From assembly GCF_058153355.1 (NCBI RefSeq), contig NZ_CM177019.1: a DNA stretch of 64,000 bases. One strand, 5' to 3'. Shown here in pieces: positions 27,663 to 46,357 of the stretch. The position numbers and the translations under genes are program-made. The notes under the pieces were generated by a model. That model saw only the letters and a program-made list of their open reading frames with translations. It did no database searches and was not told where the DNA came from. Positions within the stretch are counted from its first letter, which is position 1. Every line of letters starts with the position of its first letter.

Positions 27663-29897
<2,235 letters not shown>

Positions 29898-30171: not shown

Positions 30172-31065
<894 letters not shown>

Positions 31066-31414: not shown

Positions 31415-32389
31415 ATGTATCTTAATACTCAAGTTCAATATAATAAGTTAAATAAAGATGAAAAAAAGATCCTGTTGTTACAAAAGCTAGCCCATTTAAC
31501 TGATTTTACTTTTGACAGAATAGAGACATTTTCAGCATTTGGACAATCTACTGAAACAGGTGTTTTTAAATATAAAGATGGCAATGAATTTGTTGTTGTC
31601 CCCGGGGATACAGTAATATTAGGGTGGGATGCCAGTCTCAATAATATGGATGGTCCGACAAAACAAGAATTTGAAGAGATGTTGGAACCAGAAGGTTTAG
31701 ATTTGAATAATTATCTCACCGACTCTTGCACACCTGTCAGGAAGGTTACAATTTCCCCGATGCTGGTTGAAAGAAACGTTCACGCCGAACCAAGTTGGAA
31801 GGAAGTATCTCTTACGGACCCCCGCATCACAGAGAACAGCATGCTGCAAAAATTTCTGTCTGATTATATGGAAAAAATTAATCCTGGAGTTCACGAATTA
31901 AACGCAAGATTGAAATTACAATATATAGATGGGGATTTATTTGCACAAATATATGAATCAATTAGCTATGATGAGTTACTTCAAAATATCCAAAGCAATA
32001 GTTTTGATCTTCCGAGCGAAGATGAATGGGAATATTTATGTGGCGGTGGTTCCAGGACACTCTGGCGCTGGGGGAATAATTTCGACTATCAAATGAAAAT
32101 CCCATTTATTACTTCAGAAGAACCAACAACCTGGGATATAGAATGGCCTAATCAGTTTGGGTTGCAGATTGCATTTGATCCCTATCTTCAGGAAATTATT
32201 AATGATAAAGATATTCTTCTGAAAGGTGGCGATGGTGGGTGCAATCTCTGCGGAGGTGCTAATGTTGTATTAGGATTCTTGCCTGTGGCAACTTATTACA
32301 AAGGATATAATAAACATACGGACGAATTAGAATATATGGATGACATTGGAGACAATTATACTTCTTATCGCAGAATAATTCGTTTATGA
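31415..32389 (+). CDS. hypothetical protein, FGE-sulfatase (SUMF1/EgtB/PvdO-like) domain suspected
   Basis: 324-aa ORF, very AT-rich by eye; motifs FVVVPGDTVILGWDAS, SEDEWEYLCGGGSRTLWRWGNNF and NQFGLQI resemble the MVxIPGGxFxMG, AEWEYAxRGG...PWG and NxxGLxDM motifs of formylglycine-generating-enzyme-like domains; no signal peptide. Confidence 0.5.
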   Translation: MYLNTQVQYNKLNKDEKKILLLQKLAHLTDFTFDRIETFSAFGQSTETGVFKYKDGNEFVVVPGDTVILGWDASLNNMDGPTKQEFEEMLEPEGLDLNNYLTDSCTPVRKVTISPMLVERNVHAEPSWKEVSLTDPRITENSMLQKFLSDYMEKINPGVHELNARLKLQYIDGDLFAQIYESISYDELLQNIQSNSFDLPSEDEWEYLCGGGSRTLWRWGNNFDYQMKIPFITSEEPTTWDIEWPNQFGLQIAFDPYLQEIINDKDILLKGGDGGCNLCGGANVVLGFLPVATYYKGYNKHTDELEYMDDIGDNYTSYRRIIRL

Positions 32390-32440: not shown

Positions 32441-33952
32441 TTGCTTAACGCAAGGAATAAAAACGTATTGATGAACACTGGGAATTTCGAGTCGATACAA
32501 ATCATGATCGACGCGCAAGAGTGGCGTAGCCTGCCGCTGCATCTGCGTCTGTATCACGCTTTTCGCCAATTGGTGATTTCCGGCGCATTGTCTGATGGCG
32601 CAAAACTGCCTTCCGCTCGCGCACTGGCCCAGCAACTTGGTCTTTCCAGAGATACCATCGAAAATGCCTATTCCCAGCTCCACCGCGACGGTTTTATGGC
32701 TCGCAGGCAGGGGGCCGGGAGTTTCGCCAGCCGCCAGGGGATACCGCATATTCAGGGCCAGCATGCGCAACCACCCTCGCCCGGACAAGTACCGGCTTTA
32801 AGCGCTCGCTGGCAGCCAATTGCCGATCGCGCAGTCTCTTTCGATGCCCGCCAGATGCAGACCTTTACGCTTGGCCTGCCGGAAACGCGAAACTTCCCGC
32901 TAAACATTTGGCAGAACTTTTCCCGCCAGATCCAACGTGAGCAGGCACATACGCTGATGTTAAATAGCGATCCGCAGGGCGAGCCACAGCTGCGCCAGCA
33001 AATTGCGCATTACCTTAATTTTGAACGCGGCGCGAAGGTAGATGCCGGGCAGATTGTGATTGTCAGCGGCGCACGGCAGGCGTTCTGGCTGTGCGGGCAA
33101 CTGCTGGCAGAGGCCGGACAGTCGGTGGCGATGGAAAATCCGGGCTATCCCGGCGCGCGTCAGGCGTTTTCTGCCGCACAGCTTAATCTTCTTCCCGTTG
33201 AAGTGGATGACGCCGGGATCCGGGTGGATAAACTGCCGCCCGCGCCGCTGGTTTACGTCACGCCCTCGCACCAGTTTCCTTCCGGTCATTTGCTCACGCT
33301 GGCGCGGCGTCATGCCCTGATTGCCTGGGCGCAGGCGCACAATGCGTGGATTATCGAAGACGACTACGACAGCGAATTTCACTACACCAGCGCGCCCGTC
33401 GCCTGTCTGCAAGGGTTAGACTGCGAGCAACGCACCCTGTATGTCGGCACTTTCAGCAAAACGCTCTATCCCGGCCTGCGCATCGGTTATCTGGTGGTGC
33501 CGACGTCGCTGGCTGCGCACTTTGCCGCCGCGCGTAATTTGCTTGATGGCGCAACGCCTGCGTTATCCCAACTAACGCTGGCGCGATTTATCGAGTCCGG
33601 TCATTTTGCCGCCCATATTCGCAACATGCGTAGTATGTATGCGGTGCGACAGGGGTGCCTGGCAGAGGCTATTCATCAGCACTTAAGTGAATGGGTCACG
33701 CCAGTGGTGACATCCGGTGGATTGCAAATGCCCTGCTGGCTGCATGGAGGTATTGATGAGCAACAGACGCTGAATGCCGCGCGCCGCGCCGGGTTAAACA
33801 TCGCCGGAATGCGCCAGTTCTGGCTGACGCACCCCGCGCACGCGGGCTGGCTGCTGGGATTCGCCGCCTTTACCCCCTACGAGATTGAACAGGGCGTCAA
33901 GCGTCTGCGGGCTGCATTATGCACTGAAAACGTGCGCCCAGCCGGGTCATAA
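32441..33952 (+). CDS. MocR/GabR-type regulator (GntR HTH fused to a PLP aminotransferase-like domain)
   Basis: 503-aa ORF; N-terminal GntR-like HTH (LPSARALAQQLGLSRDTIENAYSQLHRDGFMARRQGAGSF) followed by a roughly 350-aa aminotransferase class I/II-like region; true start may be an internal Met; GC-rich by eye. Confidence 0.8.
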   Translation: MLNARNKNVLMNTGNFESIQIMIDAQEWRSLPLHLRLYHAFRQLVISGALSDGAKLPSARALAQQLGLSRDTIENAYSQLHRDGFMARRQGAGSFASRQGIPHIQGQHAQPPSPGQVPALSARWQPIADRAVSFDARQMQTFTLGLPETRNFPLNIWQNFSRQIQREQAHTLMLNSDPQGEPQLRQQIAHYLNFERGAKVDAGQIVIVSGARQAFWLCGQLLAEAGQSVAMENPGYPGARQAFSAAQLNLLPVEVDDAGIRVDKLPPAPLVYVTPSHQFPSGHLLTLARRHALIAWAQAHNAWIIEDDYDSEFHYTSAPVACLQGLDCEQRTLYVGTFSKTLYPGLRIGYLVVPTSLAAHFAAARNLLDGATPALSQLTLARFIESGHFAAHIRNMRSMYAVRQGCLAEAIHQHLSEWVTPVVTSGGLQMPCWLHGGIDEQQTLNAARRAGLNIAGMRQFWLTHPAHAGWLLGFAAFTPYEIEQGVKRLRAALCTENVRPAGS

Positions 33953-33956
33953 TCTC

Positions 33957-35003
33957 CTACGGGATGGTGTTGCAGGCAGCGGCAACCTGTTCCAGCGTCT
34001 GGCCTGCGCCAATAAATTCCACCTTATCGCCCGCTGTCGGCGTGACGGAGCTGGCATCGACCATAAAGCTGTCCATACAAACCCGCCCCAATACCGGTAA
34101 CCGCACGCCGCGCCAGCATACGCCCGCCGGAGGACGCATATTTCGCGGAACGCCATCCGCGTAACCCGCGGATATCGTAGCGATACGCAGCGGACGCGTG
34201 GCGGTAATCGTGCTGCCGTAGCCAACTGGCGTTCCCGCCGGGACATCCTGCACGCGCAGAATAGTTAGCGTCAGCGTAAAAGCCGGTTTTAGCGGCCTGG
34301 AAAACCACGGCTGGGCGACGCCAAACAGCGCAATCCCCGGACGGCAGAGATCTTCCCGCCAACCTGGTTGCAAAAACATTCCGCAGGAGTTCGCCAGCGA
34401 AAATCGGCTGCTGGGGAAAACCGTTTTTGCCTGCTGGAATAGCGCGTGTTGCGCCATATTTAACGCATGATCCGGCCTGTCGGCGTTCGCCAGATGGCTG
34501 ATGATATAGTCCGGCGCAGGCCAGTTACGCTCACGAAAAATCGCCGCCAGACGCATCAGTTGTTGCGGCATCATGCCCAGCCGCGACATACCAGAATCGA
34601 GCTGAATCATCACCGCGCTCCGTTGCTGGCGCGTTTCCAGTAACGTAAGCCACGCCATCACCTGGTCTACGGAATTGAGCAATGGCGTGATCTGCTGCGC
34701 GTAACAATACGCCATCGCCTCCGGCATAACCCCATTAAGCACTACCACCATCGCATCAGTGGGCAGGATTTTACGCAACGCCACGCCTTCAGAAAGCTGT
34801 GCGACAAAAAAGATCCGGCAGTTCGCCGCATACAGGGCGGGCGCAATCGCCTCCGCCCCCAGACCATAGGCATTGGCTTTCAACACCGCGCCACATTGCG
34901 CAGGGGCAGCATGGCGGGCCAGCATACGATAATTGTCGACGATGGCGGCGCGATTAACGCACATAACACCGCACGCCGCCTGGATTTCAGTAGAAGTCAT
35001 CAT
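33957..35003 (-). CDS. alanine racemase-family PLP enzyme (amino-acid racemase, specificity unknown)
   Basis: 348-aa ORF; VLKANAYGLG (PLP-lysine motif, cf. VVKANAYGHG in Alr) and SAGYADGVPR (cf. MGYGDGYPR catalytic Tyr region). Confidence 0.8.
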   Translation of the reverse strand: MMTSTEIQAACGVMCVNRAAIVDNYRMLARHAAPAQCGAVLKANAYGLGAEAIAPALYAANCRIFFVAQLSEGVALRKILPTDAMVVVLNGVMPEAMAYCYAQQITPLLNSVDQVMAWLTLLETRQQRSAVMIQLDSGMSRLGMMPQQLMRLAAIFRERNWPAPDYIISHLANADRPDHALNMAQHALFQQAKTVFPSSRFSLANSCGMFLQPGWREDLCRPGIALFGVAQPWFSRPLKPAFTLTLTILRVQDVPAGTPVGYGSTITATRPLRIATISAGYADGVPRNMRPPAGVCWRGVRLPVLGRVCMDSFMVDASSVTPTAGDKVEFIGAGQTLEQVAAACNTIP

Positions 35004-36238
35004 TAATAAGGCAACGGGTAGCGGTTGGTTAGTTGTATTACTTTTTGCTCAATATCGGCGCAAATGTCTGCAATATCTGATGAATTAATGGCGAAAATAA
35101 TTTCACTTATCCAGTCGGCAATCAGCGCAAAGTCATCCGCCTTCATCCCACGCGTGGTGCAGGCCGCGCTGCCAATACGAACGCCGGAGGTAATCAACGG
35201 CGGCTGCGGATCGCCCGGCAGGGTGTTTTTATTGACCGTGATCCCCGCCAGTTCGAGAAAGTACTCCACCTGTGCGCCGGTTAACCCCTGCGGGCGCAGG
35301 TCGATAATCCCCAGATGGCAGTCGGTGCCGTCCGTTAACAGCGTCAGGCCGCGCAGCGCCAGTTGCTGGCACATCGCCTGCGCATTGTCGATAACCTGCC
35401 CGGCATAACGTTTAAATTCCGGTTGTAATGCCTCGCCAAGCGCCACCGCTTTCGCTGCGATAACGTGCATCAACGGCCCGCCCTGCAAACCGGGAAAAAT
35501 GGCACTGTCGATTTTTTTCGCAAGCCTGGCGTCGTTGGTGAGGATCATGCCGCCGCGCGGCCCGCGCAATGTTTTATGCGTGGTGGTGGTGACCACATCA
35601 GCATACGCCAGCGGCGAAGGGAAACAGCCGCCCGCCACCAGCCCGGCAAAGTGCGCCATATCCACCAGCAAAATGGCGTCAACGGCATCGGCAATGCGGC
35701 GAAAACGGGCAAAATCATAGTGACGTGGATAAGCCGATCCTCCGGCAATAATCAACCGCGGGCGCTCACGCAGCGCGATCATCTCGACCTGATCCATATC
35801 AATCAAACCACTGTGCGCATCGACGCCATAGTGAAAAGCGTTAAACCATTTGCCGGATTGATTGACCGGCGAACCGTGCGTGAGATGCCCGCCGCATTGC
35901 AGGCTCATGCCAAGAATTTTGTCGCCGGGTTTCAGCAACGCCAGATGGACCGCCTGATTCGCCTGGCTGCCGGAGTGAGGCTGCACATTGACGTAACGCG
36001 CGCCAAAGAGCTGCTGCGCGCGGGTTATCGCCAGCATCTCAACCTCATCAATAAACTTACAGCCGCCGTAATAGCGATGCTGGTAATAACCTTCGGCGTA
36101 TTTATTGGTTAACACCGACCCCTGCGCCGCGAGAACGGCGGGGCTTACGAAATTCTCCGAGGCAATCAGTTCCAGCGACTGCTGCTGGCGCTGTTGCTCC
36201 TGGTTAATCAATGCAAAAAGTGGATCGTTATTTATCAT
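35003..36238 (-). CDS. serine hydroxymethyltransferase-family PLP enzyme (GlyA paralog)
   Basis: ORF 35003..36304; from [30 protein letters not shown] collinear with E. coli GlyA including [16 protein letters not shown] (PLP lysine); start at the internal Met preceded by gggggaag is more plausible, coordinate +/- a few bases. Confidence 0.85.
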
Positions 36239-36513
36239 GCGCTTCCCCCGCAAATTCATCATGCGATGATTTTCGCAGGGAAAACCTCGTCCGCACCCTG
36301 CCACTTTTTTGGGCAGGTGCAGACCACCTGTATGTCGTATTACTTAAAAGAAGAGAACATCGCTGACAATACCGGTATTAACTCCGAAATGAAGAGGGAA
36401 GAAGGCTCCGGCCATCTCCATGTGCGATTCTGGCTAGTAAAACATCATATTCCAGCTGCTCTTATCCGCCTACGTTATTGCATATACGGATAAGGCAGCC
36501 TCAATACGTACTT

Positions 36514-38067
36514 TTACTTGATATCTTTCACGCGCATACCGTTGATCTGTTCATCCGTGATGGTGTTACCCGCTTTAAAGTAATCAACCACCGCGTGATA
36601 AACGTAATAACCGCCCGTCGTATTGCGCGCTTTACCCTCGGTAAACGCGGTAAAACCATCTCCACCATCAGCAAGGAAACTCTGAGTGGCAATGTGGTAA
36701 ACCGTCGCATCTTCAATCGGTTTGCCATTCAAAGTCAGTGAGATAACCCGCTGACCAACCGGCTTGCTGCTGTCGTACTTCATTTCCAGGCCTTTCGATA
36801 CCTGTAAAACGCCATTACTTAAACTTGCGCCGTGTTCCATCAAACTGCGTAATTGTTTACCCGTGAGTTCCATCGTCACCAGTTCGTTGGGGAACGGGAA
36901 GGTACTGATGACGCCACCCATCGTAATTGCACCCGCCGGGATCTCATTGCGGATACCGCCAGAGTTGGTTAACGCCAACTGGGTATTTTTACCCGCCGCT
37001 GCCAGTAAAGCATCTGCCGCCAGGTTCCCGAGAGAAGCCGATTCACCATAGGCACGTTTTAGTTCAACCGGCGATTGCGCCACCGTTTGCTGCACGACTT
37101 CATCCAGCTTTTTATTCCAACTATCAATCACCTGTTTTGTTTGCGGATCGGGCTTCCACTCGTCGGCGTAAAGGGTTTTAAGCTCGAAGTTTTTCACCGT
37201 AAAAGTGTGCGGCTTCTCTTTGTAGTCCAGTACCAGTTTACCCACATCAATCCCACCGCTGTCAGTGGAGAGGATGAGCGTATTGCCGACTTTAATCGGT
37301 TCCGGCGTACCCACATGTGCATGCCCGGTGATCAAAATATCCAGCCCTTTCACCTGACTTGCCGTCTGAATATCTTTATCCAGTGCGCGGCGCACATCTG
37401 TGCCCCCCATACTGGACTGGCGGGCCGGAACACCTTCGTGAATCAGCGCAACGGTCAAATCAACCTTGCCTTTGAGTTCATCGATATAACGTTGTAGCCA
37501 TTTAATTTCATCACGCGCCTCAATACCCACTCGCGTTGCCGCAGATACCGTATCATTAAAGGCAAATACACCGTGCAAACCAATCACGCCAATTTTCACG
37601 CCGTCTTTTTCAATGATGGTATAGGGCTTATCCCAGAATGATTTACTGCTGTTCTGATAAAAAACATTACCCTGCACAATCGGGAATTTTGCCTGACTCA
37701 ACTGTAATAACGTATTGTCCCAGCCGTGATCAAATTCATGATTACCTATAGTGGCCGCATCGAACGGCATGGTATTCATAATATCGATAATCGCCTTGCC
37801 TTTAGTCAGGCTGCTGATATACGGCCCGGTAAAATAGTCACCCGCATCAAAAAACCAGGTCGCTTTGTTTTTAGCTTTTTCTTGTTTAACAAGCGTAGTG
37901 ATATTTGCCCAGCCGCCAATATCTCGTTTACCGTCAGCAATCCACGGCACTTTATAAGGCTCTACATGTGCATGGAGGTCGTTGGTATAAATGATGGTGA
38001 CATCTTTGGCGCAAGCCCAAAACGGCAGTGTTAATGCGATACCCGCAGCAAGCATTTTAATTTTCAT
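36514..38067 (-). CDS. secreted 5'-nucleotidase / metallophosphoesterase-family protein (UshA-like), paralog 1
   Basis: ORF 36514..38073; signal peptide [20 protein letters not shown]; calcineurin-like motifs NDLHAH, GDYFTG, GNHEFD, ITGHAHV and a C-terminal 5'-nucleotidase-type region; start trimmed to the ATG preceded by a purine-rich SD. Confidence 0.85.
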
Positions 38068-38125
38068 AAACAATCCCTTCCAGTGAGATAAAGGATTGCT
38101 ACATTACGTTCTGAAAGGCTTTTTT

Positions 38126-38199: not shown

Positions 38200-39327
38200 A
38201 TGTCAAATCTGTTTGCGATTAATGTCTGTAAAACGTTCGGTTGTCGAAATTTGGGATTGGCCTCATCGGAAGATTACAGTTGGCCAGACTATAAACTGGG
38301 TTTTCCGGCACTGCACTGCCAGGCATGCGGAAGTTACCCCCCTTTGTTTGATGAACAACAATTTCGTGACTGGTTGTCAGTTCACATGACTGCGTGTGCC
38401 ATAGAAACAGGGCATTTTTGTCCATCATGCTATTGTAAAGAAAAGATTTTTTATGGCCACAACCCGCAGGGAACACAACGCGTTCAATGCCGTTCATGCA
38501 AAAAAGTCTGGACTCCGAAACAGCAGCCAGCAAGAGAAATTACGTATCCCCAGTCCATTGAAACCGTTCAACTGTTCATGCCCTTTCAAGGAGCCAGCGC
38601 AGTACAAAAGCTCTATGTTTTAGTCAGTCTTGACGCCACTCGTGGCAACATCCTTCATCTCTCCACGAATTATACGCAACATCAGACAGGAGACAGTCTG
38701 CGGTACAGTTACAGAGGCAATACAGAACCAACTGAGCACCATAGCGATATTGTGCAGAGGGTAGATATGCGTGAAGCGCAATTCTTGCGCCGGAGCCAGT
38801 TCGATGAAATTCAGTATGGCAGTGCTGTGCTCAAGCGCAACGGCAAGGGAGCCATACTACGCCCGGTTATCACGGCACACGGGCATTTCAGAATACTGAA
38901 AATCCGCTTTCCACATGTCAAAACGCATATCATTTCACACGAATGTTTTCTGAGAGGCGCAATTATTACAGCCTGGGCAGATCAGTTCCGCCAACAACAA
39001 GGCGAACTTTGGTTCGTAGAAGAAGAAATCAGCGACCGTAACGCTGATATTCCCTGGCATTTTCAGGGAACGACATACCATGGTTGGTGGCAAAATCAGT
39101 GGCAACGCTGGGGGCAGGGGAATAACAGCAAGATGGTCTGCCTGCTCACAGGAGTCTCCTTAGAAAGGGGCGCAAATGTTTCTCTGGCAACCAGTCGTTG
39201 CTTTATCACATGGCTGACAGACCAACACGACTTTACCCAAAGCGCGTTATTATCCGCAGGTCGCGTAACGAAAATGCTGACCTCACTGGCGTTAAAATAC
39301 AATGAATCGCTCAATCCATCTTGTTAG
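38200..39327 (+). CDS. hypothetical Cys-rich protein with N-terminal zinc-ribbon(s), possibly transposase-derived DNA-binding protein
   Basis: 375-aa ORF; Cys pairs CKTFGC...CQAC and CPSCYCKEK-x14-RVQCRSCKKVWT resemble the IS1 InsA / IS1595-type zinc ribbon (CPSC...QRYLCSHCRKTWQ); remainder not recognisable; no signal peptide. Confidence 0.45.
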   Translation: MSNLFAINVCKTFGCRNLGLASSEDYSWPDYKLGFPALHCQACGSYPPLFDEQQFRDWLSVHMTACAIETGHFCPSCYCKEKIFYGHNPQGTQRVQCRSCKKVWTPKQQPAREITYPQSIETVQLFMPFQGASAVQKLYVLVSLDATRGNILHLSTNYTQHQTGDSLRYSYRGNTEPTEHHSDIVQRVDMREAQFLRRSQFDEIQYGSAVLKRNGKGAILRPVITAHGHFRILKIRFPHVKTHIISHECFLRGAIITAWADQFRQQQGELWFVEEEISDRNADIPWHFQGTTYHGWWQNQWQRWGQGNNSKMVCLLTGVSLERGANVSLATSRCFITWLTDQHDFTQSALLSAGRVTKMLTSLALKYNESLNPSC

Positions 39328-39556: not shown

Positions 39557-41110
39557 ATGATGAGAACTGTATTTACGACTTTATCAGTCATATTCAGCGT
39601 GATGTTTTCTCACAGTATACTAGCTCAGGACGTTACTATTTATTATACGAATGATATTCACGCACATGTCAATCCGGCAAAAATTCCCGCTGTTGATAAG
39701 AACAGACTTGTAGGTGGTATGGCTAATATTGCAGGCATCGTTAATGAAGCGAAGAAAAAAAACAAAGATGTCTTTTTCTTTGATGCAGGCGACTATTTTA
39801 CCGGTCCGTATATCAGTACCCTGACCAAAGGTGAAGCTATTATTGATATCATGAACACCATGCCCTTTGATGCGGTATCCGTTGGTAATCACGAGTTCGA
39901 TCACGGCGTGCCCAATATGGTATCTCAGTTATCAAAAGCAAAATTCCCCATTCTGCTGGGAAATATTTACTACACCGATACAAATAAACCAGTTTGGGAT
40001 CATCCGTGGACCATTATCGAAAAAGATGGTTTAAAGATTGGTGTGATTGGATTGCATGGTGCATTCGCTTTCTATGATACAGTCGCGGCAAAAGCACGTG
40101 AAGGCGTAGAAGCCAGAGACGAAATTAAATATTTAAATAAAGCACTTGCAGAATTAAAAGGTAAAGTCGACATTACCGTTTTGCTAATTCACGAAGGTGT
40201 TCCGGCGCGTCAATCAAGCTTTGGTAGTAAAGATGTGGAGCGGCTACTACAGGCAGATATTGAGACAGCTAAAAAAGTGAATGGTGTTGATGTCTTAATT
40301 ACCGGTCACGCACATGTCGGAACACCGCAACCAATAAAAGTTAATAACACATTAATTGTATCTACCGATGCATACGGCACCGACATCGGAAAACTTGTGC
40401 TTGATTACAATCCGAAAACGAAGAAAATTGATAGTTATAATGGTGAGTTAATCACCATCTTCGCAGATCAATTTAAACCTGACACCATCGTTCAAAATAC
40501 TATCGATAAATGGAGTGCAAAGCTTAACAAAATAACACAGGAAGTTGTCGGCCATTCTCCCGTAGTTTTAACACGTGAGTATGGCAGTTCTTCTTCTACC
40601 GGTAACCTTATTCTTGATGCAATGATGGAAAAAACACCAGATGCCATTGCCGGATTTCAAAATAGCGGTGGGATGCGAGCTGATTTTCCTAAAGGTGATA
40701 TCACGCTGGGAGATGTTATTAGCACATTCCCCTTTAATAATGACCTCATCGAGATGGATTTGACGGGCCGCGATCTCAAATCGTTGATGACGCATGCAAC
40801 CAATCTAACTAACGGTGTGTTACAGGTTTCAAAAAGCGTTGCGGTTGTCTATGACAGCAAAAAACCACTGAACCAACGGTTAATCTCTTTCACCATTAAC
40901 GGCAAACCCGTGGAAGATAATCAAACATATCGTATTGTCACGCACTCCTTTTGTGCCAGTGGTGGTGACGGTTTTGAAGCATTTTTGAATGGAAAAAATG
41001 TGAAGACGATACCGGGAACAACCTCGGCGGAATCTATCATCGATTATTTCAAAAATCATAAACCTGTCACCCCAGACTTAACTAAACGAGTAATGGACGT
41101 CGCCAAATAA
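39557..41110 (+). CDS. secreted 5'-nucleotidase / metallophosphoesterase-family protein, paralog 2
   Basis: 517-aa ORF, AT-rich; signal peptide MMRTVFTTLSVIFSVMFSHSILA; same motif set (NDIHAH, GDYFTG, GNHEFD, ITGHAHV); collinear with paralogs 1 and 3. Confidence 0.85.
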   Translation: MMRTVFTTLSVIFSVMFSHSILAQDVTIYYTNDIHAHVNPAKIPAVDKNRLVGGMANIAGIVNEAKKKNKDVFFFDAGDYFTGPYISTLTKGEAIIDIMNTMPFDAVSVGNHEFDHGVPNMVSQLSKAKFPILLGNIYYTDTNKPVWDHPWTIIEKDGLKIGVIGLHGAFAFYDTVAAKAREGVEARDEIKYLNKALAELKGKVDITVLLIHEGVPARQSSFGSKDVERLLQADIETAKKVNGVDVLITGHAHVGTPQPIKVNNTLIVSTDAYGTDIGKLVLDYNPKTKKIDSYNGELITIFADQFKPDTIVQNTIDKWSAKLNKITQEVVGHSPVVLTREYGSSSSTGNLILDAMMEKTPDAIAGFQNSGGMRADFPKGDITLGDVISTFPFNNDLIEMDLTGRDLKSLMTHATNLTNGVLQVSKSVAVVYDSKKPLNQRLISFTINGKPVEDNQTYRIVTHSFCASGGDGFEAFLNGKNVKTIPGTTSAESIIDYFKNHKPVTPDLTKRVMDVAK

Positions 41111-41144: not shown

Positions 41145-42770
41145 ATGCGAATGAAAACAGTGCAGCGTACTTTACTTGCCGCAACATTGCTGACTATTTT
41201 TTCGGTCTCAGCCATGGCGCAGGATGTCACGATTATTTATACCAATGATCTTCACGCTCATGTGGATTCTTATAAAGTGCCGTATATCGCAGACGGAAAA
41301 CGCGACATTGGCGGCTTTGCCAATATATCTACTTTAGTAAAACAAGAGAAAGCGAAAAATAAAGCCACCTTTTATTTTGATGCTGGAGACTATTTCACCG
41401 GCCCTTATATCAGCAGTCTGACAAAGGGCGAAGCAATAATTGACATTATGAATACCATGCCTTTTGACGCAGTATCAATCGGTAATCATGAGTTTGACCA
41501 TGGCTGGGATAATGCCCTGCGACAATTAAGCAAAGCGAATTTTCCTGTTTTATTGGGCAATGTTTATCATAAAGAGAGTGAGAAACCCTTCTGGAACAAG
41601 CCCTACACCATCCTGGAAAAAGATGGCATCAAGATTGGTATTATTGGGCTACACGGCGTATTTGCATTTAATGATACGGTCTCGGAGCTCTCTCTCCAGG
41701 GACTCGATAATGACAATAATAACCGCTTTGATAAATCTTCCGAGACCCTTAAGAATCAGGGGATTGAAGCACGTGATGAAGTGAAGTATTTGCAGCATTA
41801 TATCGACGAGTTACGTGATAAGGTTGACCTCACTGTGGCGCTGGTTCATGAAGGCGTTCCGGCGCGTCAGTCCAGCATTGGCATTACAGATGTTAGACGC
41901 GCTCTTGATAAAGATATTCAAACCGCTAGCAAGGTGAAAGGATTGGATATTCTGATTACCGGGCATGCCCACGTCGGAACGCCAGAACCAATCAAAGTCG
42001 GCAACACCTTAATCCTTTCAACTGATAGTGGCGGTATCGATATTGGTAAATTAGTCCTTGATGTCAACCCTACAGCTCGTACCCATAAAATGAAGAGCTT
42101 TGAGCTGAAAACAGTTTATGCCGATGAATGGATACCCGATCCAACGACACAAAAAGTTATCAATGGCTGGAATAAAAAACTGGCGGATATTGTACGCCAA
42201 CCAGTGGGTGAATCATCGATTGCATTAACTCGCGCCTATGGTGAGTCATCGCAACTAGGCAACCTGTTTACCGATGCAATGCTTGTCGCTGCTCCGACTG
42301 CACAGATTGCATTGATAAACTCCGGCAGCTTACGTGCGGATATAAATGCAGGCACGATTACCTTTGGCGACATTACCAGTACATTCCCCTTCAAGAATGA
42401 ACTTACTGAAATGGATCTCAGCGGTAAGGATCTGCGTAACCTACTGGAACACGGGGCATCGCTTACCAATGGCATCCTGCAAATGTCAAAAGGCGCAGAA
42501 ATGCGCTATACCCCGCAGAAACCAGTAGGTCAGCGCATAGTATCTTTTAAAATTAATGGTGAAGAGATCGTTGATACGAATATTTACCATGTTGCAACAA
42601 CGACTTTCCTTGCACTGGGGGGCGATGGTTTTCTGGCATTCAAAGAAGGGAAAAATGTTCAGGTCCGCGCCGGAAAAAACATGTCCGATGTCGTGATCGA
42701 TTATTTGAAGAAAGGCCACAAGATTACGCCTGCACAGGTAAATGAAATGCGGGTGGACGTTAGCAAATAA
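41145..42770 (+). CDS. secreted 5'-nucleotidase / metallophosphoesterase-family protein, paralog 3
   Basis: 541-aa ORF; signal peptide MRMKTVQRTLLAATLLTIFSVSAMA; highly similar to paralog 1 but with an extra Asp/Asn-rich insertion of about 25 aa (SELSLQGLDNDNNNRFDKSSETLKNQG). Confidence 0.85.
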   Translation: MRMKTVQRTLLAATLLTIFSVSAMAQDVTIIYTNDLHAHVDSYKVPYIADGKRDIGGFANISTLVKQEKAKNKATFYFDAGDYFTGPYISSLTKGEAIIDIMNTMPFDAVSIGNHEFDHGWDNALRQLSKANFPVLLGNVYHKESEKPFWNKPYTILEKDGIKIGIIGLHGVFAFNDTVSELSLQGLDNDNNNRFDKSSETLKNQGIEARDEVKYLQHYIDELRDKVDLTVALVHEGVPARQSSIGITDVRRALDKDIQTASKVKGLDILITGHAHVGTPEPIKVGNTLILSTDSGGIDIGKLVLDVNPTARTHKMKSFELKTVYADEWIPDPTTQKVINGWNKKLADIVRQPVGESSIALTRAYGESSQLGNLFTDAMLVAAPTAQIALINSGSLRADINAGTITFGDITSTFPFKNELTEMDLSGKDLRNLLEHGASLTNGILQMSKGAEMRYTPQKPVGQRIVSFKINGEEIVDTNIYHVATTTFLALGGDGFLAFKEGKNVQVRAGKNMSDVVIDYLKKGHKITPAQVNEMRVDVSK

Positions 42771-42847: not shown

Positions 42848-43708
42848 ATGTGTATAAAAAAGCACGGGATAGCTTTATCGATTCTATTAATACCTTGCAT
42901 TGGAAACGCTCAGGAAATTAAAAGTGAGGAAGGCTGGTTACATCAAAGCTTGAATGTCATTGGTCGCACAGACTCTCGCTTTGGCCCAAGGCTGACTAAC
43001 GACCTCTACCCTGAATATACTGTAGCAGGAAGAAAAGACTGGTTTGATTTTTATGGTTATGTTGATCTACCAAAATTCTTTGGCGTCGGCAGTCACTATG
43101 ATGTTGGGATCTGGGATGAGGGCTCACCACTATTTACGGAAATAGAACCTCGGTTTTCCATTGACAAATTGACCGGATTAAATCTTGCGTTCGGCCCTTT
43201 TAAAGAATGGTTCATTGCAAACAACTATGTCTATGATATGGGTGACAACCAGTCATCCCGGCAAAGTACATGGTATATGGGGCTTGGTACAGATATCGAC
43301 ACGGGTCTACCAATTAAGCTTTCTGCCAATATATACGCCAAGTATCAGTGGCAAAACTATGGTGCCGCTAATGAAAATGAATGGGACGGATATCGATTCA
43401 AAATAAAATATAGCATTCCTCTTACCCATTTATTCGGAGGGCGATTGGTATACAATAGTTTTACTAACTTTGATTTTGGATCCGATCTTGCGGACAAATC
43501 ACACAATAATAAACGAACCAGTAATGCTATTGCTTCAAGCCATATCCTTTCCCTGCTATATGAACACTGGAAATTTGCATTTACACTACGTTATTTTCAC
43601 AACGGTGGACAATGGAATGCTGGGGAGAAAGTTAACTTCGGAGATGGTCCATTTGAATTAAAAAACACAGGATGGGGAACCTATACTACTATTGGTTATC
43701 AATTTTAA
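42848..43708 (+). CDS. Tsx-family outer-membrane nucleoside-specific channel protein (paralog of tsx)
   Basis: 286-aa ORF, AT-rich; signal peptide then blocks matching E. coli Tsx from memory ([97 protein letters not shown]) and a C-terminal aromatic residue. Confidence 0.85.
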
Positions 43709-43924: not shown

Positions 43925-46357
43925 CTACAACAACTGCGCCAGACGGTTAATATCCGACTGAATCGCCCCGGCGGTGACGTCGCGCCCTGCGCCTGGCCCA
44001 CGGATCACCAGCGGGTTGTCGCGATACCAGCGGCTTTCGATGGCAAAGACGTTATCGCACGGTAGTAGTGATGCCAGCGGATGGTCTTCTCGCACCGCTT
44101 CCACGCCTACTCGCGCTTTGCCGTTAGCATCGAAACGCGCCACGTAGCGCAACACCAGCCCCATTTCACGGGCCGCTTCCAACCGTTGTACCATCTGCTC
44201 ATTAAGTTCATCGCCATTTTCAAAGAAATGGTCGATGCTGCCACCTTCGCAATGGGTTGGCACCAGTGATTCAACACGCACCTGGTCCGGTTCAATGTTG
44301 TAACCCGCTTCACGCGCCAGAATCACCAGCTTGCGCATCACATCTTTGCCGGAGAGGTCATCACGCGGGTCAGGTTCAGTTAAGCCCTGCTGCCACGCCT
44401 GATCCACCAGCTCAGTAAACGGCACGCTACCGTCGAATTGCAGGAACAGCCAGGAGAGCGTGCCGGAGAAGATCCCGCTGATCGACAAAATAGTGTCGCC
44501 GCTGTCGATCAGATCGCGCACGGTATGGTTGATCGGCAAACCTGCGCCGACGGTGGCGTTGTATAGCCAGTGACGCCCGGTTTTTTCGAACGCGTCGTGG
44601 ATCTGTCGATATTTATTGCTGTCGCTGGCTCCCGCCAGTTTGTTGGCACTGATGACGTGGAAACCGTGGCTGGCGAAATCGAGATACTGATCAGCAAGCT
44701 GCTGGCTGGCAGTAACGTCCAGCACCACTAAATCATCATACGGATGGGCACGCATCCACAGGAACAGCGACTCTTCATCCTGTTCGACGGCTTCATCATT
44801 AAAGAAGGCTAGCGCACGGCTGGCGTCCAGCCCGTCATAGCTCAACAGGCTGCGACGGCTGTCCACCACGCCTGCCAGCACAAATTCAAAGCCGGTGCGC
44901 GCCGAGAGCGTGCTCTGCTCACGGGCGAACAGTTCCAGCCAGCGGGAACCGATATTGCCCTTACCGAACAATACCAGGCCGATGCGTTTTTCTGCGCGGA
45001 AGACGGACTGATGCAGCCCCTGAATCAGGCTTTCGGTCGGCCCGGTGCGCAGTACTGCCACCAGGCTGATGCCGTCATCGGACTGCCAGGTAAACTCGAC
45101 CGGCTGGCCTTTCAGTTGCTGCCAGAAGCGGTGGCAATGCAGCGGGTTACGGGTGACGCCCGCCCCAACCATCGCCACCAGCGCCAGCCCCTGACGCAGG
45201 CGCAGTTCGCCGGGTAATCCTGCTTCGTCGAGGATTTTCAGCGCACTGTCGGCCACTTCCGAGGTGTAGCAAAATTGCAGCAACTGGCGATCGTTATGCA
45301 CGCCAACTGCCAGTGGGCGCACCTGAGCACGTTTCAGGATTTGGTCGATCTCTTTATGCGCCAGTTTAAAATCCTGACTGGCGGGCACCTGAAACTCAAT
45401 CAAACAGACATCATCGTGGCTGGTGACAATACGCGCGCCAGTACCTGAGGCCAGCACGCGTTCAATACGCGTAGATCCTTGATCCGGTGTATAGCTACAG
45501 CGCAGCTGCAGGTCGATTTCGCTGCCAGAAACTGGCTGTAAAGTACGCGCGTGCAACACTGGCGCGGCAAGACGCGCCAGTTCACTGGCTTCATCAAGAC
45601 GCAGCAATGGCAGCAGACAGGCATCTTTCACTTTACGCGGGTCGGCACTATATACCCCGGCGACATCGCTCCAGATGGTTACGCGGGAAACCCCCGCCAG
45701 CGCACCGATTTGTGTCGCGGAATAGTCGGAACCGTTACGCCCCAGCAGCACCGTTTCACCGGCGTTGTTACGGCTGATAAACCCGGTCACCACCAGACGT
45801 TTGCCCGGATGTTGTACCAGTAGCTGTTGCAGCAACGGGTAAGAAAGCCCTTCATCAACCTGCGGCTGCGCGGCGCGTTCAGCGCGTAAAAACTCGCGGG
45901 CATCAAGCCAGGCCGCTGGCAGCCCTTGTTGATTAAGTACCGCAGACATCAGGCGCGCCGACCACACTTCACCGTGGCCCACCACTTCCGCATACACCGC
46001 ATCGTTAATACCGCTGTCGAGCAGCGCCGCCAGGCGTTCCAGATCGCTGACAAAAGCGCTAATGAGGCTATCGGCTTCTTCAGCGGGTAGCAGGCCGCTA
46101 ATCAGATCGCACTGATAGCGACGCAGCGTTTGTTGAACCTGATGCGCAGAGAGACGATCGGTCTGGCTTAGTTTCAACCAGTTAATCAACTGGTTAGTGG
46201 TGCTACCGGCGGCGGAAACCACCATCATATCGTCAGGCTGAGAGTACTCCGCCATAATGCCCGCGACACGCAAATAACACTTCACATCAGCCAGACTACT
46301 GCCACCAAATTTATGCAGTTGACGACCTTTCGCCCCTGCCTGCGCAATCACACTCAT
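43925..46357 (-). CDS. metL: bifunctional aspartokinase II / homoserine dehydrogenase II
   Basis: 810-aa ORF MSVIAQAGAKGRQLHKFGGSSLADVKCYLRVAGIMAEYSQPDDMMVVSAAG. Confidence 0.96.
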   Translation of the reverse strand: MSVIAQAGAKGRQLHKFGGSSLADVKCYLRVAGIMAEYSQPDDMMVVSAAGSTTNQLINWLKLSQTDRLSAHQVQQTLRRYQCDLISGLLPAEEADSLISAFVSDLERLAALLDSGINDAVYAEVVGHGEVWSARLMSAVLNQQGLPAAWLDAREFLRAERAAQPQVDEGLSYPLLQQLLVQHPGKRLVVTGFISRNNAGETVLLGRNGSDYSATQIGALAGVSRVTIWSDVAGVYSADPRKVKDACLLPLLRLDEASELARLAAPVLHARTLQPVSGSEIDLQLRCSYTPDQGSTRIERVLASGTGARIVTSHDDVCLIEFQVPASQDFKLAHKEIDQILKRAQVRPLAVGVHNDRQLLQFCYTSEVADSALKILDEAGLPGELRLRQGLALVAMVGAGVTRNPLHCHRFWQQLKGQPVEFTWQSDDGISLVAVLRTGPTESLIQGLHQSVFRAEKRIGLVLFGKGNIGSRWLELFAREQSTLSARTGFEFVLAGVVDSRRSLLSYDGLDASRALAFFNDEAVEQDEESLFLWMRAHPYDDLVVLDVTASQQLADQYLDFASHGFHVISANKLAGASDSNKYRQIHDAFEKTGRHWLYNATVGAGLPINHTVRDLIDSGDTILSISGIFSGTLSWLFLQFDGSVPFTELVDQAWQQGLTEPDPRDDLSGKDVMRKLVILAREAGYNIEPDQVRVESLVPTHCEGGSIDHFFENGDELNEQMVQRLEAAREMGLVLRYVARFDANGKARVGVEAVREDHPLASLLPCDNVFAIESRWYRDNPLVIRGPGAGRDVTAGAIQSDINRLAQLL

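What the first reader, a model, noticed from the sequence alone, without database searches (positions are those of the whole stretch)
32441..36304. GC-rich PLP module: MocR-type regulator convergent with an operon of an extra SHMT paralog and an alanine-racemase-family enzyme
Three PLP-dependent proteins are adjacent. The SHMT-like and racemase-like genes are tandem on the minus strand with abutting or overlapping ORFs (likely an operon), and the MocR-type regulator ends 4 bp from the racemase stop. E. coli already has glyA and alr/dadX, so these are accessory paralogs. One concrete hypothesis: SHMT-family 2-methylserine hydroxymethyltransferases interconvert alpha-methylserine and D-alanine, so an SHMT paralog paired with a racemase could form a pathway for an alpha-alkyl or beta-hydroxy amino acid, or supply D-amino acids or one-carbon units to another function of the island. 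The composition suggests acquisition from a higher-GC donor.
Basis: inference. Interest (0 to 1): 0.6.

Follow-up and report, generated by a model that had tools for sequence, protein, structure and literature searches.

The report
PLP-regulator module with spare SHMT and racemase
This is a real, horizontally acquired three-gene unit in which a vitamin-B6-sensing regulator appears to control extra copies of two ordinary B6-dependent enzymes, but the racemase copy in this genome is cut short by a stop codon and nothing supports the proposed alpha-methylserine pathway.

Summary
The three genes are real and sit in a 57.9% GC block between metF and metL. The unit recurs in Salmonella enterica, E. 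fergusonii, an ICE-like element and 3 of 5426 complete E. coli genomes.

- The "4 bp gap" comes from a TAT->TAG nonsense mutation at racemase codon 349. Intact homologues are 368 aa and overlap the regulator's 3' end by 56 nt.
- The SHMT most likely starts at 36238. The longer ORF reads through its own operator and promoter.
- The other E. coli copies carry independent SHMT stop codons, so the module is decaying in E. coli.

Both enzymes look canonical. All 20 SHMT active-site and folate residues checked are kept. The four substitutions seen in the one available 2-methylserine hydroxymethyltransferase are absent, and identity to it is 50%.

The regulator belongs to the proteobacterial PdxR group. 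A bipartite operator, GTGGTCTG-N16-TGGC, lies upstream of the SHMT. The same operator precedes benE or benE-glyA next to 47-50% identical regulators in Bordetella, Achromobacter and Janthinobacterium.

Best reading: a PLP-responsive operon supplying extra SHMT and alanine racemase. This is a variant, with alr added, of a regulon predicted in 2016. The alpha-methylserine idea is not supported. Interest is modest.

The parts
32471..33952 (+). MocR-family (GntR wHTH + aminotransferase-like) regulator of the proteobacterial PdxR group, 493 aa. The maximal ORF starts at TTG 32441.
   Evidence: NCBIfam NF052282 scores 426.6 bits against a cutoff of 320, nearly tied with rhizopine MocR at 422.8 bits, which is below its cutoff of 650. 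Identity is 89% to Salmonella, 82% to the ICE copy, and 46-50% to regulators in Mesorhizobium, Bordetella, Achromobacter and Janthinobacterium that sit next to SHMT or BenE. The FSKT lysine motif is present.
33957..35003 (-). Alanine-racemase paralogue, truncated allele of 348 aa.
   Evidence: TIGR00492 scores 216 bits against a cutoff of 168. The best PDB match is Bartonella Alr 3KW3. Lys42, Tyr262, Arg141, His170, Arg221 and Met310/Asp311 are conserved. The protein is identical to P0001, named 'alanine racemase [Escherichia coli]'.
33957..33959 (-). Premature stop codon TAG, replacing Tyr349 TAT of intact homologues.
   Evidence: DNA and protein alignments with E. coli 2013C-4282 and GF4-3.
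33897..33956 (-). Remnant of the last 20 racemase codons plus the ancestral stop, now untranslated. It overlaps the regulator's 3' end convergently by 56 nt.
   Evidence: Intact 368-aa genes in L001, L002, L003 and L004 extend this far and overlap the regulator gene.
35003..36238 (-). SHMT paralogue, 411 aa, apparently intact. Its last codon is CAA->TAA relative to relatives, which removes one residue.
   Evidence: NF000586 scores 604.9 bits. Identity is 93% to Salmonella, 63% to alpha/beta-proteobacterial GlyA and 54% to E. coli GlyA. All 20 canonical residues checked are kept.
36296..36327 (-). Bipartite operator: box 1 GTGGTCTGC (36327-36319) and box 2 GTGGCAGGG (36304-36296).
   Evidence: The pattern GTGGTCTG-N16-TGGC occurs once in the window. 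It occurs once in every module locus and once next to each related regulator in Bordetella, Achromobacter, Janthinobacterium and Pseudomonas. It occurs in none of the 88 other loci held when the scan was run. The block is conserved in the upstream alignment.
36269..36274 (-). Putative -10 hexamer GAAAAT, exactly 30 nt after the start of box 2.
   Evidence: The same spacing gives TAGAAT in Bordetella, TAGACT in Achromobacter and TAATAT in Janthinobacterium (sequences). This is inference, not tested. The consensus scan did not list it.

Best explanation
This is a mobile three-gene PLP module.

A PdxR-group MocR regulator (32471-33952, +) controls a convergent two-gene operon. The operon encodes an ordinary serine hydroxymethyltransferase and an ordinary alanine racemase.

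Control runs through a bipartite operator, GTGGTCTGC-N14-GTGGCAGGG. Its second box lies over the -35 position of the SHMT promoter.

By analogy with characterised PdxR proteins, the PLP-free regulator would bind the direct repeats and activate transcription, and PLP would switch it off. The cell would then make extra SHMT (one-carbon units, glycine) and extra racemase (D-alanine for the wall) when vitamin B6 is scarce or PLP enzymes are damaged.

In this genome only the regulator and the SHMT look intact. The racemase lost its last 20 residues to a nonsense mutation. Other E. coli copies have stop codons in the SHMT, so the module is being lost in E. coli.

Shown: gene identities, active-site conservation, truncation, module conservation and mobility, and operator conservation across genera. 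Inferred: binding, direction of regulation, PLP as effector, and physiological role.
For: - Family assignments above curated cutoffs.
- Canonical SHMT residues: 20 of 20.
- Canonical racemase residues kept.
- Purifying selection, dN/dS 0.08-0.24.
- The triad is conserved in Salmonella at the same locus, in E. fergusonii, in a metagenomic contig, and on an ICE-like element without the neighbouring 5'-nucleotidase.
- About 110 nt upstream of the SHMT is conserved while sequence further upstream is not.
- The operator pattern is unique in the window and specific to loci with this regulator group.
- Bordetella bronchiseptica has the same architecture: operator, benE-SHMT, and a convergent regulator 47% identical to this one.
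- Mesorhizobium pairs a regulator (46% identical) with an SHMT (65% identical), with inverted ATGGTCTGC boxes.
- Suvorova & Rodionov 2016 (PMC5320631) predicted a 'PdxR (Proteobacteria)' regulon containing GlyA, BenE, COG325 and PdxK. It includes B. bronchiseptica BenE+GlyA.
- The same paper summarises that apo-PdxR activates and PLP acts as anti-activator.
- The C. glutamicum PdxR box AAAGTGGW(-/T)CTA resembles these boxes (PMC4494728).
Against: - No member of the proteobacterial PdxR group has been tested experimentally, as far as the searched literature shows.
- The NCBIfam PdxR score is nearly tied with rhizopine MocR, so the family name is weak evidence for PLP as the sole effector.
- No matching box lies upstream of the regulator gene itself, unlike classical PdxR divergons.
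- The regulator is convergent, not divergent.
- An alanine racemase was not among the regulon members listed in the 2016 study (text search).
- In this window the racemase is truncated, so the full mechanism cannot operate here.
Confidence: 0.55

Rival explanations
1. Amino-acid catabolic or detoxification operon. The MocR regulator senses an amino acid such as D-alanine, D/L-serine or glycine as a PLP-aldimine, as GabR senses GABA. It then induces racemase plus SHMT to channel D-/L-alanine, serine or glycine into central and one-carbon metabolism.
For: Many MocR regulators respond to amino compounds rather than PLP alone (PMC5320631). The regulator scores almost equally with rhizopine MocR and PdxR. 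Both enzymes are canonical.
Against: SHMT and alanine racemase do not form a linear pathway for any common substrate. No transporter or deaminase travels with the triad. The operator and the regulator's relatives tie it to the BenE/GlyA/COG325/PdxK regulon, which is PLP-centred.
Confidence: 0.18
2. The SHMT paralogue is a 2-methylserine (or other alpha-alkyl or beta-hydroxy amino acid) hydroxymethyltransferase whose D-alanine product is handled by the racemase.
For: EC 2.1.2.7 enzymes are SHMT homologues that release D-amino acids. They can sit beside D-amino-acid enzymes, as in the TRIS cluster of mSHMT plus DsdA (PMC10848231). The paralogue has a few clade-specific changes near the active-site loop, P60Y and A/H123C.
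Against: The TRIS mSHMT differs from canonical SHMT at Y55T, Y64F, Y65H and H228T. The paralogue is canonical at all four and at 16 further key positions. It is 50% identical to the mSHMT, against 63% to alpha/beta GlyA. There are no folD/purU or transporter genes. Only one mSHMT sequence was available, so the signature rests on a single example.
Confidence: 0.05
3. Target-duplication defence. Spare copies of two PLP enzymes are induced when PLP enzymes are poisoned, for example by D-cycloserine-type antimetabolites or 2-aminoacrylate stress.
For: GlyA and the alanine racemases are documented targets of 2-aminoacrylate damage in Salmonella (PMC12172467). The regulator has a PLP-binding sensor domain. 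From my own knowledge, alr over-expression gives cycloserine resistance in other bacteria.
Against: There is no direct evidence. The relatives' regulons centre on B6 salvage and transport rather than resistance. This overlaps with the best explanation, since both predict induction when holo-enzyme supply fails.
Confidence: 0.1

Closest known systems
Bordetella bronchiseptica benE-glyA operon with convergent MocR regulator ('PdxR (Proteobacteria)' regulog, Suvorova & Rodionov 2016, PMC5320631)
   Same: Same operator, GTGGTCTG-N16-TGGC, upstream of the operon. The SHMT is of the same clade (63-64% identical). The regulator is convergent downstream and 47% identical.
   Different: Bordetella has a BenE-family transporter ahead of the SHMT and no racemase. 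The enteric module has no BenE and adds an alanine racemase after the SHMT. The gene ends overlap by 56 nt in enterics and are 14 nt apart in Bordetella.
Characterised PdxR regulators (C. glutamicum, L. monocytogenes, S. pneumoniae, B. clausii)
   Same: MocR architecture and GTGG-containing repeat boxes (AAAGTGGW(-/T)CTA). A second box sits at the -35 region, which fits activation. PLP is the ligand.
   Different: Those regulators control pdxST divergently and auto-repress. Here the targets are PLP-dependent enzymes, the regulator is convergent, and no box lies upstream of its own gene. The effector is untested.
Salmonella enterica metL-metF locus ('alanine racemase 3' + second SHMT + PLP-dependent aminotransferase-family regulator)
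   Same: Same genes, order and chromosomal site. Identities are SHMT 93%, racemase 83% and regulator 89%.
   Different: The Salmonella copies examined are intact (412, 368 and 493 aa). The window's racemase is truncated. dS of 0.42-0.57 against 1.29 for metF suggests later exchange rather than strict vertical descent.
2-methylserine hydroxymethyltransferase of the TRIS-degradation plasmid p1_Teo1 (CP131128.1; PMC10848231)
   Same: An SHMT-family paralogue on mobile DNA beside an enzyme acting on a D-amino acid.
   Different: Identity is 50%. The mSHMT has T55/F64/H65/T228 where the window protein has canonical Y/Y/Y/H. The TRIS cluster carries dsdA, folD, purU and dsdX, and is regulated by a LysR-type (GltC-like) regulator.
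E. coli housekeeping GlyA (PDB 1DFO) and Alr/DadX
   Same: Same folds and catalytic residues.
   Different: Identity to GlyA is 54%. The racemase is far closer to alphaproteobacterial Alr (Bartonella 3KW3, 294 bits) than to E. coli Alr (about 140 bits).

Membership tests
MocR subfamily of GntR transcription factors | N-terminal GntR-type winged HTH fused to a fold-type-I aminotransferase-like domain with a PLP-binding lysine. | tested here: met
   NCBIfam HTH matches at residues 40-99 and aminotransferase matches at about 160-495. Homologues carry PF00392 and PF00155. The FSKT lysine motif is conserved in alignments.
PdxR group of proteobacterial MocR regulators | Score above the NF052282 cutoff. 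| tested here: met
   426.6 bits against 320. It is nearly tied with rhizopine MocR (422.8 bits, below its cutoff of 650), so the name alone is weak.
PdxR group of proteobacterial MocR regulators | Shared operator and regulon content (GlyA, BenE, COG325, PdxK). | tested here: met
   GTGGTCTG-N16-TGGC lies upstream of the SHMT here and upstream of benE or benE-glyA beside homologous regulators in three betaproteobacterial genera. Regulon lists are in PMC5320631.
PdxR group of proteobacterial MocR regulators | PLP acts as the effector controlling activation. | not testable with these tools
   Needs binding and reporter assays.
Serine hydroxymethyltransferase (GlyA, EC 2.1.2.1) | Family profile score, Schiff-base lysine, and substrate and folate-binding residues. 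| tested here: met
   NF000586 scores 604.9 bits against 335. E. coli positions S35, Y55, E57, Y64, Y65, L121, G125, H126, L127, S175, D200, H203, T226, H228, K229, R235, F257, P258, N347 and R363 are all identical.
2-methylserine hydroxymethyltransferase (EC 2.1.2.7) | Clusters with, and shares active-site substitutions of, an mSHMT. | tested here: not met
   50% identity. It falls outside the mSHMT branch in an NJ tree. It lacks Y55T, Y64F, Y65H and H228T. The test rests on a single mSHMT sequence, which the TRIS paper (PMC10848231) assigns by similarity to confirmed mSHMTs and by cluster function rather than by enzyme assay.
Alanine racemase (Alr, EC 5.1.1.1) | Family profile score, PLP lysine, and the second catalytic tyrosine. 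| tested here: met
   TIGR00492 scores 216 bits against 168. Lys42 and Tyr262 are present, together with Arg141, His170, Arg221 and Met310/Asp311.
Alanine racemase (Alr, EC 5.1.1.1) | Complete C-terminal domain, including the conserved TIPYE...R segment. | tested here: not met
   The window allele stops at codon 349. Eight positions at least 95% conserved in 103 related racemases are lost.

The most novel reading that the evidence does not exclude
The module is a cofactor-sparing response for vitamin B6, analogous to zinc- or iron-sparing paralogue switches. When PLP runs low, the apo-regulator turns on dedicated isozymes of the two PLP enzymes whose loss kills fastest. These isozymes would have distinctive cofactor affinity or damage resistance; the clade-specific P60Y, A/H123C and A336F changes in the SHMT are candidates. 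Salmonella Typhi, Enteritidis and other serovars would then have a conditionally expressed third alanine racemase. This could affect D-alanine auxotrophy and cycloserine sensitivity.
Probability: 0.25. Interest if true: 0.6.

Novelty: new variant of a known kind. Interest (0 to 1): 0.35.

Why it matters
It links a concrete, cross-genus operator to an untested regulon prediction (proteobacterial PdxR controlling a GlyA paralogue) and extends that regulon to an alanine racemase. This makes PLP-dependent control of PLP-enzyme isozymes directly testable in Salmonella or E. fergusonii, where the genes are intact.

There is a practical side. Several Salmonella serovars, including Typhi, carry a third alanine racemase and a second SHMT. 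That is relevant to D-alanine auxotrophic strains, cycloserine susceptibility and ridA/2-aminoacrylate work.

For this E. coli window the module is half-disabled, so its local importance is small.

Tried and rejected
- A scan of genome contigs with a racemase alignment returned only distant Firmicute racemases (26-39% identity). The two peptide patterns chosen did not recover enteric copies, so the scan gave no information on distribution.
- Rfam search of the conserved SHMT leader gave nothing but a chance snoRNA hit at E=9. A known riboswitch is therefore not supported. An unknown RNA element is not excluded, but the operator reading explains the conservation.
- P0140, which looked like a 73% identical SHMT next to rpiB, is a chimeric metagenome contig. 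GC jumps from 36% to 56-60%, and the downstream racemase is 97% identical to the E. coli module. It was discarded.
- The nearest racemase relatives at about 50% identity (P0010, P0011, P0013) have no SHMT or MocR context, so they say nothing about the module.
- I looked for operator boxes upstream of the regulator gene in five contexts and found none.
- A literature search for 'alanine racemase 3' with Salmonella gave no papers.
- The upstream 5'-nucleotidase was considered as an operon member. It is rejected as part of the unit because the ICE-borne triad lacks it, and conservation starts only about 110 nt before the SHMT.
Full report
**Observation**

The window carries katG (27663-29882, -) and metF (30172-31062, -). 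An insert of about 12.8 kb follows, ending before metL (43925-46357, -). Inside it lie the three reported ORFs. NCBIfam assigns them to three families.
- MocR/PdxR-type regulators: NF052282, 426.6 bits against a cutoff of 320.
- Alanine racemase: TIGR00492, 216 bits against 168.
- SHMT: NF000586, 604.9 bits against 335.

The block is 57.9% GC against 51.3% for the window. The description is therefore correct at the stated coordinates.

**Corrections to the anatomy**

- Alignment with the three complete E. coli genomes that carry the block shows a nonsense mutation in the window's racemase. Only 3 of 5426 genomes have the block, at 95-97% identity.
- The mutation is TAT->TAG at codon 349. Intact genes encode 368 aa and overlap the regulator's 3' end convergently by 56 nt. 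The "4 bp" spacing is thus a mutational artefact.
- The truncated protein is identical to a database entry from E. coli, P0001.
- The truncation removes the conserved TIPYE...R segment, which includes eight positions at least 95% conserved in 103 related racemases. From memory, Tyr349 corresponds to Tyr354 of the Geobacillus enzyme, a PLP-phosphate ligand.
- The SHMT ORF start at 36304 is an over-extension. PGAP and Salmonella calls, a GGGGGAAG Shine-Dalgarno sequence and profile coverage all point to ATG 36238, giving 411 aa. The extra codons read through the promoter region.
- The SHMT lost only its final Gln (CAA->TAA). This turns the usual ATGA overlap into TAATG.
- The other E. coli copies have independent inactivating stops in the SHMT: Gln280 in 2013C-4282 and Gln20 in GF4-3. 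The module is decaying in E. coli.

**Distribution**

- The same triad sits at the same metL-metF site in Salmonella enterica, where it is intact (412, 368 and 493 aa).
- Cluster members come from serovars Typhi CT18, Enteritidis, Dublin, Albany and others, and from E. fergusonii.
- It also occurs next to ParA, DnaB and DUF2857 genes of an ICE-like element, without the neighbouring 5'-nucleotidase, and on a metagenomic contig. The three genes are therefore the unit.
- dN/dS is 0.08-0.24 for all three genes, which indicates purifying selection.
- dS between the window and Salmonella is 0.42-0.57 for the module but 1.29 for adjacent metF. This argues for horizontal exchange after the Escherichia-Salmonella split.

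**The enzymes**

- The SHMT is 93% identical to the Salmonella copy, 63% to alpha/beta-proteobacterial GlyA, 54% to E. coli GlyA and 50% to the mSHMT of the TRIS-degradation plasmid. The E. coli GlyA sequence was verified as identical to PDB 1DFO. The mSHMT is from CP131128.1 (PMC10848231).
- All 20 canonical active-site and folate positions checked are unchanged. The mSHMT differs at Y55T, Y64F, Y65H and H228T.
- Clade-specific changes at otherwise conserved positions are D12N, A18L, P60Y, A/H123C and A336F. Their meaning is unknown.
- The racemase is closest to alphaproteobacterial Alr. Bartonella 3KW3 scores 294 bits, and E. coli Alr about 140. It keeps the catalytic residues.
- Both proteins therefore look like ordinary SHMT and alanine racemase.

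**The regulatory link**

- About 110 nt upstream of the SHMT is conserved among E. coli, Salmonella and the ICE or metagenome copies. Sequence further upstream is not conserved.
- This stretch contains GTGGTCTGC-N14-GTGGCAGGG. No Rfam family matches it.
- The nearest non-enteric homologues of the regulator (46-52% identical) sit beside BenE-family transporter genes or SHMT genes.
- The pattern GTGGTCTG-N16-TGGC occurs exactly once in the window, at 36300-36327 (-). It occurs once in each module locus.
- It also occurs once upstream of benE in Achromobacter, once between the regulator and benE in Janthinobacterium, and once next to the Pseudomonas regulator. It occurs once upstream of benE-glyA in Bordetella bronchiseptica.
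- It is absent from the 88 other loci held when the scan was run.
- Mesorhizobium has inverted ATGGTCTGC boxes between a homologous regulator and its SHMT.
- In four genera a -10-like hexamer lies exactly 30 nt after the start of box 2: TAGAAT, TAGACT, TAATAT, and GAAAAT here (sequences). Box 2 therefore lies over the -35 region.
- Bordetella reproduces the architecture of the window: operator, operon ending in an SHMT, and a convergent regulator.
- These loci are the 'PdxR (Proteobacteria)' regulog of Suvorova & Rodionov 2016. Its predicted members are BenE, GlyA, COG325, PdxK, ArgD and RimI (PMC5320631). No alanine racemase turned up in a text search of that study's tables.
- The boxes resemble the C. 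glutamicum PdxR box AAAGTGGW(-/T)CTA (PMC4494728).

**Mechanism**

Characterised PdxR proteins activate as apo-proteins, and PLP acts as anti-activator (summarised in PMC5320631). The most likely working is therefore PLP-responsive activation of an SHMT-racemase operon. This would give extra capacity for one-carbon and D-alanine supply when PLP is scarce or PLP enzymes are damaged. Binding, direction of control, effector and physiology are all inferred.

Arguments against:
- No box lies upstream of the regulator gene.
- The arrangement is convergent.
- The profile score is nearly tied with rhizopine MocR.
- Nothing in this proteobacterial group has been tested experimentally.

The residue and identity data argue against the last of these.

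**Verdict**

The finding is real, but its specific biochemical hypothesis is not supported. It is a variant, with a racemase added and BenE absent, of a regulon already predicted by comparative genomics. It is common in Salmonella and rare and decaying in E. coli. In this window it is half-disabled. Interest is modest.

Noticed in passing
window 31415-32389 (+): An AT-rich (36.5% GC) 324-aa ORF with no NCBIfam match lies between metF and the regulator. It is present in E. coli 2013C-4282. E. coli GF4-3 has a PTS EIIC gene plus malI in its place, and Salmonella has nothing there. The left edge of the insert is therefore a variable slot.
   Followed up: partly
window 36514-38073 (-), 39557-41110 (+), 41145-42770 (+), 42848-43708 (+): Three paralogous UshA-like metallophosphatase/5'-nucleotidase genes lie here. 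At least the two whose translations were read (36514-38073 and 39557-41110) begin with signal-peptide-like N-termini. A Tsx-like nucleoside channel gene follows. Together they look like a nucleotide or nucleoside scavenging cluster that fills the rest of the metF-metL insert. Only the first gene is also present in GF4-3 and Salmonella.
   Followed up: partly
window 38200-39327 (+): A 375-aa Cys-rich 'cytoplasmic protein' is conserved next to the 5'-nucleotidase in E. coli and Salmonella. Its only hit is a weak match (E=4e-4) of residues 74-136 to the N-terminus of IS1 transposase, a zinc-finger region. Function unknown.
   Followed up: no
L001 14701-15960, L002 14531-15769, window 33957-33959: Three independent nonsense mutations hit the module in different E. 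coli lineages: SHMT Gln280*, SHMT Gln20* and racemase Tyr349*. All are single-base changes with no frameshifts.
   Followed up: yes
window 30172-31062 against 32471-36238, compared with L003: Synonymous divergence from Salmonella is 1.29 for metF but only 0.42-0.57 for the three module genes. This implies later horizontal exchange at a shared chromosomal site.
   Followed up: partly
L093 1-2531: This metagenome contig is a chimera. It joins a low-GC rpiB-glyA segment to the high-GC enteric SHMT-racemase module within the conserved SHMT coding region. The resulting database protein, P0140, is artefactual.
   Followed up: yes
L097 3179-4894 (Achromobacter): Next to the homologous regulator lie a second MocR gene, a YggS-like protein (Ala_racemase_N domain only, COG325 type) and a GATase. 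This is another PLP-centred cluster. The YggS-like protein shares its fold type with the full racemase found in the enteric module.
   Followed up: no
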